A DNA stretch of 64,000 nt from Octopus vulgaris. Lineage: Eukaryota. Both the position numbers and the translations under genes were made by a program. Shown here piece by piece: positions 4,213 to 30,497 of this stretch (positions within the stretch are counted from its first letter, which is position 1; each line of letters starts with the position of its first letter). Location of the stretch: the NCBI GenBank assembly GCA_951406725.2, contig OX597817.1:36952001-37016000 (forward strand). The letters are read 5' to 3'. The notes beneath the pieces were generated by a model that made no database searches, was not told the DNA's origin, and saw nothing but the letters and a program-made list of their open reading frames with translations.

Positions 4213-4565
4213 AGGCGTAGGAGTGGCTGTGTAATAAGTAGCTTGCTTACCAACCACATGGTTCCAGGTTCAGTCCCACTACGTGGCACCTTGGGCAAGT
4301 GTCTTCTACTACAGCCTCGGGTCGACCAAAGCCTTGTGAGTGGATTTGGTAGACGGAAACTGAAAGAAGCCCGTCGTATATATATATGTTTGTGTGTCTG
4401 TGTTTGTCCCCCACCCAACATCGCTTGACAACCGCGGTTCAATAAAAGAGACCGATAGAATAAGTGCTAGGCTTACAAAGAATAAGTCCTGGGGTTCGAT
4501 TTGGTCGACTAAAGGCGGTACTCCAGCATGGCCGCAGTCAAATGACTGAAACAAGTAAAAGAGTA
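4213..4565 (+). mobile_element. SINE family A
   Basis: Colinear with 2221-2605, with a short internal deletion. Confidence 0.9.
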
Positions 4566-29473: not shown

Positions 29474-30013
29474 AAAAGGGTGTAAAACCTAATCCAAGCT
29501 GAGTTGTGATTGAAATTCAGAAGTCAGAGTTAGCAAACTAAACATCCTAAAATAGTTCGTACACTATCAAATAGGACTACAAAGTCTTAATGTCAGATAT
29601 TAACAATATTGTGCAGCTATTGTAGTATATCAGTGTGGTTTTGGCAGATTAACTGAGTGGCAGGGATACAATATCAAAGGTCAATCATAATTGGATACGA
29701 CCAACGTGAATTTGATCTTTCGGCGTATTTAAATATTATTTGCAAATATTTATACATAATCTCTCAAGTAACAAGTCGGATGGTGGTTACGTATGAATGT
29801 CTTCCATTTTATTGACTCATTGTTAAGTAGATCCTTTCAAAACCTTAGCTCTGTCTTTCGTTACCTTACATTATTACCGTCAACACTATTAGACACACCT
29901 AAATAATACTAGCATTAAAAACCAGGATTAAATTTCATGTACAGCTGTGTACACACCCATAGCACTCGCACTCACAGCACTCACAGCACACACACACGCA
30001 CACACACACACAA

Positions 30014-30044
<31 letters not shown>

Positions 30045-30123
30045 AACACACACACACAGACGGACAAACACGCACGCGCACAAACACCCGCGCATGTATA
30101 CATTTAATAACAGCTTGGTTCAG

Positions 30124-30183
30124 CTTCATATGACTAAAAGTTTCGCGGACGCGTAGAACGAATTCATCTCGTCAGATACGAGG
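30124..30183 (-). ncRNA. type I hammerhead ribozyme motif, intact catalytic core
   Basis: Minus strand: UCGUAU-CUGACGA-G(22 nt)C-GAA-ACU(UUU)AGU-C-AUAUGA; helix I 6 bp, helix III 3 bp, GUC site; helix II irregular. Confidence 0.65.
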
Positions 30184-30375
30184 ATATACATGTGTGTGTG
30201 TGTGTGTGTATGTTTAAGAAAAAGAGATGGCACAGGAATAACTGTAGGTATGTTATGAACTTCATTAGCTTACAGTTGCTACTGCTATCTGACGCAGCGG
30301 ACTCTCAGTTGAGCTGTGTCATCTATTTGTCTTATTACCGCTCTATACTCATCAAACACTTTCTTTTGCAACATA

Positions 30376-30497
30376 CGTATAGTGATTTCCACAATGCGTA
30401 AGCGAAATATTAAAGCTCACACGCACACGTATAGTGATTTCCACAATGCGTAAGCGAAATAGTAAAGTCTCACAATGCGTAAGCGAAATATTAAAGC
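30376..30497. repeat. local tandem duplication (about 2.5 copies)
   Basis: CACAATGCGTAAGCGAAATA occurs three times and ACGTATAGTGATTTC twice. Confidence 0.85.

What the first reader, a model, noticed from the sequence alone, without database searches (positions are those of the whole stretch)
30124..30183. Stand-alone hammerhead with a perfect core but non-canonical helix II
Seen (minus strand): all core residues (CUGACGA, G10.1-C11.1, GAA, A15.1-U16.1, GUC), helix I UCGUAU/AUAUGA and helix III ACU/AGU, in a ~100-nt island between (CA)n and (TG)n. Helix II contains GAUG/CGUC and a GAA-UUCG-UUC hairpin, with extra CGC before GAAA. Inference: the best candidate here for an active self-cleaving RNA, possibly a bulged-helix-II variant; predicted cut 3' of C at position 30132.
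Basis: partly seen in the sequence, partly recalled or inferred. Interest (0 to 1): 0.75.

Follow-up and report, generated by a model that had tools for sequence, protein, structure and literature searches.

The report
Decayed Penelope-element hammerhead remnant
This is a real hammerhead-ribozyme motif, but it is one of dozens of mutated leftovers from the end repeat of an old Penelope-like jumping gene; its intact core is likely luck, and it is predicted not to cut on its own, so it is ordinary.

Summary
The type I hammerhead on the minus strand (30181-30126) is real: 1 hit in the window, 0 in 200 shuffles. It is not an independent element. It is a ~90-nt, 5'-truncated pseudo-LTR fragment of an old Penelope-like family, most likely Hydra clade. 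A decayed full-length copy elsewhere carries this hammerhead at both ends of an RT-endonuclease ORF. Across 54 copies, helix II is G10.1-C11.1, one bulged base, then 8 bp (77.7% paired for the whole fold, 0/500 shuffles). The window copy has two mismatches in that stem and no partner hammerhead within 30 kb. The core decays as fast as its flank (11.7% vs 11.6%), and 2 of 35 less-biased copies keep a perfect core, so one perfect core is expected by chance. A copy on another contig has a perfect core and a 9/9 helix II, and is a better bench candidate. A single metazoan PLE hammerhead tested in print did not cleave detectably. Cleavage and expression are untested. The bulge directly after G10.1 is a small family variant absent from a published table of Hydra hammerheads. 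Earlier scan notes concern other PLE families; none matched this sequence.

The parts
30093..30182 (-). 5'-truncated pseudo-LTR fragment of an old Penelope-like (likely Hydra-clade) family; extends about 51 nt 5' and 39 nt 3' of the cut site
   Evidence: anchored alignment to other copies; genome searches
30176..30181 (-). helix I, 5' arm UCGUAU
   Evidence: sequence; inner pairs covary in the family, U-A/C-G 20:24 and A-U/G-C 19:14
30169..30175 (-). core C3-U4-G5-A6-C7-G8-A9
   Evidence: column counts
30145..30168 (-). helix II in the family register: G10.1(30168)-C11.1(30145), bulged A 30167, stem 30166-30159 / 30153-30146, loop UUCUA 30158-30154; mismatches A30164.C30148 and U30161.C30151
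   Evidence: 9/9 pairs in copy L114, found by a pattern that did not specify helix II
30142..30144 (-). core G12-A13-A14
30133..30141 (-). helix III ACUUUUAGU, near-palindromic (dimer type); U at 30136 where 46 of 54 copies have A
   Evidence: self-duplex -1.3 vs -3.6 kcal/mol for the majority form
30132..30132 (-). C17 of the GUC triplet; predicted cut between 30132 and 30131
   Evidence: hammerhead consensus (established knowledge); not tested
30126..30131 (-). helix I, 3' arm AUAUGA
30093..30125 (-). 3' tail of the element, shared by family copies
   Evidence: median 3' end +38 nt; 34 of 54 end within 10-46 nt of the cut
29969..30087 (.). (CA)n microsatellite just 3' of the element end, the likely insertion target
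   Evidence: a microsatellite follows the 3' end in 34 of 54 copies vs 402 of 2370 random windows
30191..30212 (.). (TG)n microsatellite at the 5' truncation point

Best explanation
The motif is a mutated, 5'-truncated end-repeat fragment of an old Penelope-like retroelement family, likely of the Hydra clade, whose hammerhead core has likely stayed intact by chance and is predicted not to cut as a lone copy. Shown: the family is dispersed; a full-length decayed copy has the layout hammerhead - ORF - hammerhead at 2.55-kb spacing; that ORF is homologous to an intact RT protein whose model best matches telomerase RT; the hammerhead's helices covary between two subfamilies; and copies decay at a neutral-looking rate. 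Inferred: in the active ancestor, two hammerheads of a tandem or two-repeat transcript paired through the palindromic helix III and cut the RNA to unit length. The element's endonuclease nicked a microsatellite, and reverse transcription started about 30-40 nt past the cut site, so the template was uncut or re-ligated. Here it stopped about 50 nt upstream of the cut and left only the hammerhead. Since then substitutions have broken two helix II pairs and weakened the dimer stem.
For: Family; 54 copies aligned. Full-length copy L080 has hammerheads at oriented 1924-1997 and 4477-4539. Its ORF matches the intact 727-aa ORF of a younger family at 28-34% identity, E 9e-61. The AlphaFold model of that ORF (pLDDT 92.8) best matches TERT, E 6e-10. 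Copies of the window's own subfamily (L073, L065) lie downstream of the endonuclease region. An inverted truncated copy lies just upstream in 7 of 15 loci, a PLE hallmark (PMC8557442, passages). Hydra motifs RWK, DKT, CxCX5C and CxxC/CxH are defined in PMC8557442 section 11 and seen. The family's helix III ACUUUAAGU is identical to that in 5 Hydra families of File S2. Structure. Neutral decay: in 35 copies found mainly by upstream homology, core non-CpG divergence is 40/341, 3' flank 53/455, CpG-prone core positions 30/104, and 2 of 35 have a perfect core. Folding. Print: a single S. mansoni PLE hammerhead showed no detectable cleavage, and dimers only low activity (PMC4209133, parts 1-2 of 4).
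Against: The copy keeps all 13 scored core positions, a GUC triplet and a 6-bp helix I. Its helix III variant ACUUUUAGU is the consensus form in two published Hydra families (Penelope-2_HM and -5_HM), so that change need not inactivate it. Nearest-neighbour energies ignore hammerhead tertiary contacts. Covariation rests largely on the split between two subfamilies, i.e. few events, and RNAalifold predicted no pairs on the alignment. Pfam found no RT or GIY-YIG domain in either the old or the young ORF, and the Atlas GIY-YIG lead was weak (0.84, 32% of members). The clade call rests on motifs read by eye, not on a tree. The locus is identical over 30088-30179 in a contig of organism B and about 2% different in organism D; these are too close to tell selection from drift.
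Confidence: 0.88

Rival explanations
1. Same origin, but the copy retains weak cleavage activity (for example in trans with another family transcript, or at high Mg) without any role for the host.
For: Perfect core, GUC triplet, 6-bp helix I and 7 of 9 helix II pairs. The helix III form occurs in published Hydra consensus hammerheads. Low activity of dimers and of stabilised constructs is reported.
Against: The helix II closed stem is +2.2 kcal/mol and P(G10.1-C11.1) is at most 0.0001. A competing hairpin over the core has P 0.4-0.9. There is no second family hammerhead in the 64-kb window.
Confidence: 0.08
2. The copy has been exapted as a functional stand-alone ribozyme in a host transcript and is kept by selection.
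For: Intact core; the locus is present in close relatives.
Against: The family core is not more conserved than its flank, and about 10% of copies are expected to keep a perfect core by chance (my arithmetic from the rates; observed 2 of 35). At least 20 other copies keep these core positions (12, 8 more). Helix II has accumulated unpairing changes.
Confidence: 0.03
3. It is a solo monomer of a non-autonomous retrozyme rather than a piece of an autonomous PLE.
For: Many copies of the window's subfamily are also very short (5' extent 39-67 nt in 16 of 54). Animal retrozymes are argued to derive from PLE pLTRs (bioRxiv 10.64898/2026.07.22.740005, part 1 of 5).
Against: No tandem unit at the locus. 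Upstream homology among copies runs continuously into the endonuclease and RT coding region. The short copies were found with a short query, so their shortness is partly selection.
Confidence: 0.01

Closest known systems
Hydra-clade PLE hammerheads (Craig et al. 2021, PMC8557442; section 11, passages, and File S1/S2 tables read)
   Same: C-terminal-EN PLE under 3 kb, microsatellite targets, type I hammerhead in the pLTR. Helix III ACUU-U-AAGU matches 5 listed families, and the window's ACU-UUU-AGU matches 2. GUU triplets are common (10 of 26 rows). G10.1-C11.1 plus a 7-bp helix II is listed for Hydra-1_aMil, Penelope-2_NV, -1_SK and -2_SK.
   Different: None of the 26 Hydra rows shows an unpaired base directly after G10.1-C11.1. 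The listed octopus element Hydra-1_oBim has a different hammerhead sequence, so this is another family.
Minimal PLE hammerheads of metazoans (Cervera and de la Pena 2014, PMC4209133; parts 1-2 of 4 read)
   Same: Long helix II (7-8 bp), palindromic helix III, an unpaired base at the start of helix II, mostly single truncated copies with high sequence variability, dimer-dependent low activity.
   Different: Their usual extra base lies between A9 and G10.1; here the variable base lies after G10.1. D. virilis has a further bulge in the middle of helix II.
Metazoan non-LTR retrozymes (bioRxiv 10.64898/2026.07.22.740005, part 1 of 5 read; PMC7229834, search listing only)
   Same: Type I hammerhead related to PLE pLTRs.
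   Different: Retrozymes are tandem non-coding units; this copy is single, and its family has an RT-EN ORF.

Membership tests
Type I hammerhead ribozyme | Core C3-U4-G5-A6-N7-G8-A9, G12-A13-A14, A15.1-U16.1, H17 | tested here: met
Type I hammerhead ribozyme | Helices I, II, III around the core with helix I open, supported by covariation | tested here: met
   family level: 77.7% paired, 89 cells changed on both sides, 0/500 shuffles; largely a two-subfamily signal
Type I hammerhead ribozyme | Stable helix II in this copy | tested here: not met
   7 of 9 pairs, +2.2 kcal/mol, P(G10.1-C11.1) <= 0.0001
Type I hammerhead ribozyme | Rfam hammerhead model match | tested here: not met
   no hit at the gathering score or at E<=10
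Type I hammerhead ribozyme | Self-cleavage 3' of N17 | not testable with these tools
   needs an in vitro assay or stranded raw reads
Penelope-like element (EN+) | Hammerhead-bearing pseudo-LTRs flanking one ORF | tested here: met
   family copy L080; the window copy holds the repeat fragment only
Penelope-like element (EN+) | Telomerase-related RT | tested here: met
   indirect: old ORF 28-34% identical to the intact young ORF, whose model best matches TERT; Pfam blank
Penelope-like element (EN+) | C-terminal GIY-YIG endonuclease | tested here: inconclusive
   motifs seen by eye; Pfam blank; weak Atlas lead
Penelope-like element (EN+) | 5' truncation, inverted 5' copies, 30-40-bp tail | tested here: met
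   definition in PMC8557442
Hydra clade | RWK and DKT motifs | tested here: met
   young ORF has both; old-family copy L045 reads R*KAFFF; DKT not recognisable in the old copies seen
Hydra clade | CxCX5C linker; CxxC and CxH in the endonuclease | tested here: met
   L080 reads CNC*NLTNC; CxxC and CxH in several old copies; in the young ORF the second C of the linker is F
Hydra clade | Unit under 3 kb; (TA)n insertion preference | tested here: met
   2.55-kb spacing; microsatellites after 34 of 54 3' ends, (TA)n and others; the window copy sits in (CA)n/(TG)n
Hydra clade | Phylogenetic placement of the RT | not tested
   no reference Hydra proteins were available as stored sequences
Non-LTR retrozyme | Tandem non-coding units, each with a hammerhead | tested here: not met
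   single copy, no tandem unit; the family has an ORF

The most novel reading that the evidence does not exclude
This family carries an unreported hammerhead variant with a freely variable bulged base directly after G10.1-C11.1 and an 8-bp helix II, and this particular copy still self-cleaves as a lone motif in a host transcript. The family-level half (a real, cleaving bulge-after-G10.1 variant) is about even odds but of modest interest; the copy-level half is the unlikely part.
Probability: 0.06. Interest if true: 0.55.

Novelty: new member of a known kind. Interest (0 to 1): 0.14.

Why it matters
Little as it stands: hammerheads in Penelope-like end repeats, including Hydra-clade elements of octopus, are published, and most genomic copies are known to be single truncated relics. 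Two small uses remain. It adds a further Hydra-like family with two subfamilies (GUC and GUU triplets, covarying helices). It also shows a bulge position in helix II that I did not find in a published table of Hydra hammerheads or's search; copy L114 makes that variant directly testable. The case also shows that a perfect core in one copy of an old repeat is weak evidence of function.

Tried and rejected
Rfam: no hammerhead match. RNAalifold gave no consensus pairs, so named structures were counted instead. Pfam was blank on 11 old ORF pieces, 3 read-through frames, the young ORF, and 16 of the window's 21 long ORFs, so no host gene was identified. The homologue search with the endonuclease alignment found nothing among longer proteins, and the PDB sequence search gave only chance hits. 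P0002's GIY-YIG hit was not used because I did not check that it lies in the homologous part. Expression: no RNA holder listed, and four guessed-RNA contig sets did not cover the motif; this is no evidence either way. Orthologue in the more distant organism E: no long piece was listed over the motif, and contigs laid there lacked the window's private letters at 30136 and 30146; undecided. Rows dropped before the 54-copy alignment: 7 partial profile hits, duplicate loci, and L013 (a different family). All 54 copies span the cut site by construction, so that fact is not used as evidence. I first guessed the Neptune clade from recalled motifs; the paper's tables pointed to Hydra. Lunse et al. 2017 could not be read; it is cited only through a review passage (PMC6765202). 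The supplementary figures of PMC4209133, which I did not open, may already show this bulge position.

Full report
Observation. The parts are helix I UCGUAU/AUAUGA, core CUGACGA, G at 30168 and C at 30145, GAAA, helix III ACU-UUU-AGU, and C17 at 30132. A type I descriptor finds this one site in the window and none in 200 shuffles. Rfam does not score it. The 60-mer does not fold better than shuffles (z -0.05).

It is not alone. A DNA search of the own genome gave 7 further copies at 77-84% identity. A core pattern gave 10 matches against 0 for the control. A longer query from one copy gave 49 matches from 40 scored of 106 candidates, a further upstream query gave 41 matches from 40 of 136 candidates, and later searches added more. 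In 7 of the first 15 loci an inverted, truncated copy lies just upstream. Craig et al. describe this arrangement, and a 30-40-bp tail, as typical of Penelope-like elements (PMC8557442, passages).

The parent element. Homology between copies runs up to about 870 nt upstream into a decayed coding region. One locus, L080, holds hammerhead - ORF - hammerhead with 2.55-kb spacing. Its broken ORF finds a younger family with intact frames of up to about 727-774 aa (139 matches) and aligns to one of them at 28-34% identity, E 9e-61. The AlphaFold model of that protein (pLDDT 92.8) has telomerase RT as its best PDB match (E 6e-10). Pfam recognised neither RT nor GIY-YIG in these proteins, so the endonuclease call rests on motifs. 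Those motifs (RWK, DKT, CxCX5C, CxxC, CxH), the size and the microsatellite targets match the Hydra clade as defined in section 11 of PMC8557442 (seen). Family-typical words occur in that paper's Hydra sequences. No tree was built. Copies of the window's own subfamily (L073, L065) lie downstream of the endonuclease region, so the link is not limited to the other subfamily. The window itself has no trace of the ORF and no second copy. The fragment spans about 30182-30093. A microsatellite follows the 3' end in 34 of 54 copies against 402 of 2370 random windows.

The true fold. I aligned 54 copies after dropping 7 partial hits, duplicates and L013. Helix I has 4+4 pairs around a 2-nt bulge. Helix II is G10.1-C11.1, one variable unpaired base (A 29, C 11, T 10, G 3), then 8 bp and a 5-nt loop. 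Helix III is 3 bp. This structure is paired in 77.7% of cells against 73.8% for shuffles (0/500) and 30-41% when slid, with 89 cells changed on both sides. The signal comes mostly from two subfamilies, one with mainly GUC and one with mainly GUU triplets, so it reflects few events, and RNAalifold found nothing by itself. An independent check is copy L114, found with a pattern that left helix II free: it has 9 of 9 pairs in this register, and the stem is in its minimum-energy fold.

State of the window copy. It has 7 of 9 helix II pairs, two of them G.U, with mismatches A30164.C30148 and U30161.C30151. The closed stem costs +2.2 kcal/mol against a family best of -9.3. A hairpin CUCGU/ACGAG that buries the core has probability 0.4-0.9 depending on context. 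The gap between the hammerhead fold and the ensemble is 13.4 kcal/mol against a median of 15.2 over 33 copies, and 5.8 for L114. Helix III has U at 30136 where 46 of 54 copies have A, which weakens the dimer duplex from -3.6 to -1.3 kcal/mol. Against my reading, this helix III form is the consensus in two published Hydra families, and such energies ignore tertiary contacts.

Is the perfect core meaningful? In 35 copies found mainly through upstream sequence (the query also held the hammerhead, which if anything favours intact cores), non-CpG core positions differ from the majority in 40 of 341 cells. The 3' flank differs in 53 of 455 and CpG-prone core positions in 30 of 104; 2 of 35 keep all 13 positions. 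These rates predict about 10% by chance (my arithmetic). Twelve other aligned copies and 8 more keep these core positions. One perfect core among many decaying copies is therefore expected, and it is the one a reader would notice. Close relatives hold the locus with 0 to about 2% difference, which is too little divergence to test selection. Expression could not be assessed.

Mechanism. Shown: family membership, element layout, fold register and neutral-looking decay. From print: metazoan PLE hammerheads have a long helix II, an unpaired base at its start and a palindromic helix III; a single motif gave no detectable cleavage and dimers gave low activity (PMC4209133, parts 1-2 of 4; review passage PMC6765202). 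Inferred: the ancestral element's hammerheads cut its transcript as dimers; target-primed reverse transcription at a microsatellite began some 30-40 nt past the cut site, on an uncut or re-ligated template, and here aborted just upstream of the hammerhead; drift has since loosened helix II.

Novelty. Hammerheads in Hydra-clade PLEs are published, including an octopus element with a different motif (File S2 of PMC8557442). That paper's table of 26 Hydra rows shows the same helix III and GUU triplets, but no unpaired base directly after G10.1-C11.1. Literature searches showed no description of this family or this bulge position. Lunse et al. 2017 and the supplementary figures of PMC4209133 were not seen and may cover it. 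Earlier scan notes on this genome concern other PLE hammerheads; none matched this sequence. Verdict: a new member of a known kind, most likely an inactive relic; interest 0.14.

Noticed in passing
L084, L091, L093, L100 (e.g. L091 near 3305, minus); intact ORF L094:967-3150 minus: A young, near-identical Penelope-like family with intact ~727-aa ORFs (most of the 139 matches) carries a hammerhead with A.A where G10.1-C11.1 is expected, a short GCAA-capped stem, palindromic helix III and a GUA triplet. Its helices I and III closely resemble the published Hydra-2_aMil motif, and U.U closings are common in published Hydra rows.
   Followed up: partly
G000 C4:36938296-36939126 (about 13 kb before the window start): A copy of that young family with a 604-aa open frame lies just outside the window.
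   Followed up: no
L114 (G000 C2:78156305-78156356 +): Best-preserved copy seen of the finding's family: perfect core, 9/9 helix II, GUA triplet.
   Followed up: partly
window 31594 +, 33976 +, 51178 +, 63435 -: Other CUGAnGA motifs followed 12-20 nt later by CGAAA with short stems between; possibly hammerheads of other repeat families, not matched by this family's profile.
   Followed up: no
window 30226-30375: Fragment of a very high-copy repeat directly 5' of the element on the minus strand; summed contig depth above 60000 at 30258-30287 in run X4.
   Followed up: no
window 30375-30496: Short 52-bp tandem duplication, 95% match.
   Followed up: no
L013 (G000 C5:36253766-36253819 +): A hammerhead of a different family with an intact core, a longer helix II region and palindromic helix III ACUCGGAGU.
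   Followed up: no
alignment A2: One subfamily has mainly a GUU cleavage triplet and the other GUC, in step with compensatory changes in helices I and II.
   Followed up: partly
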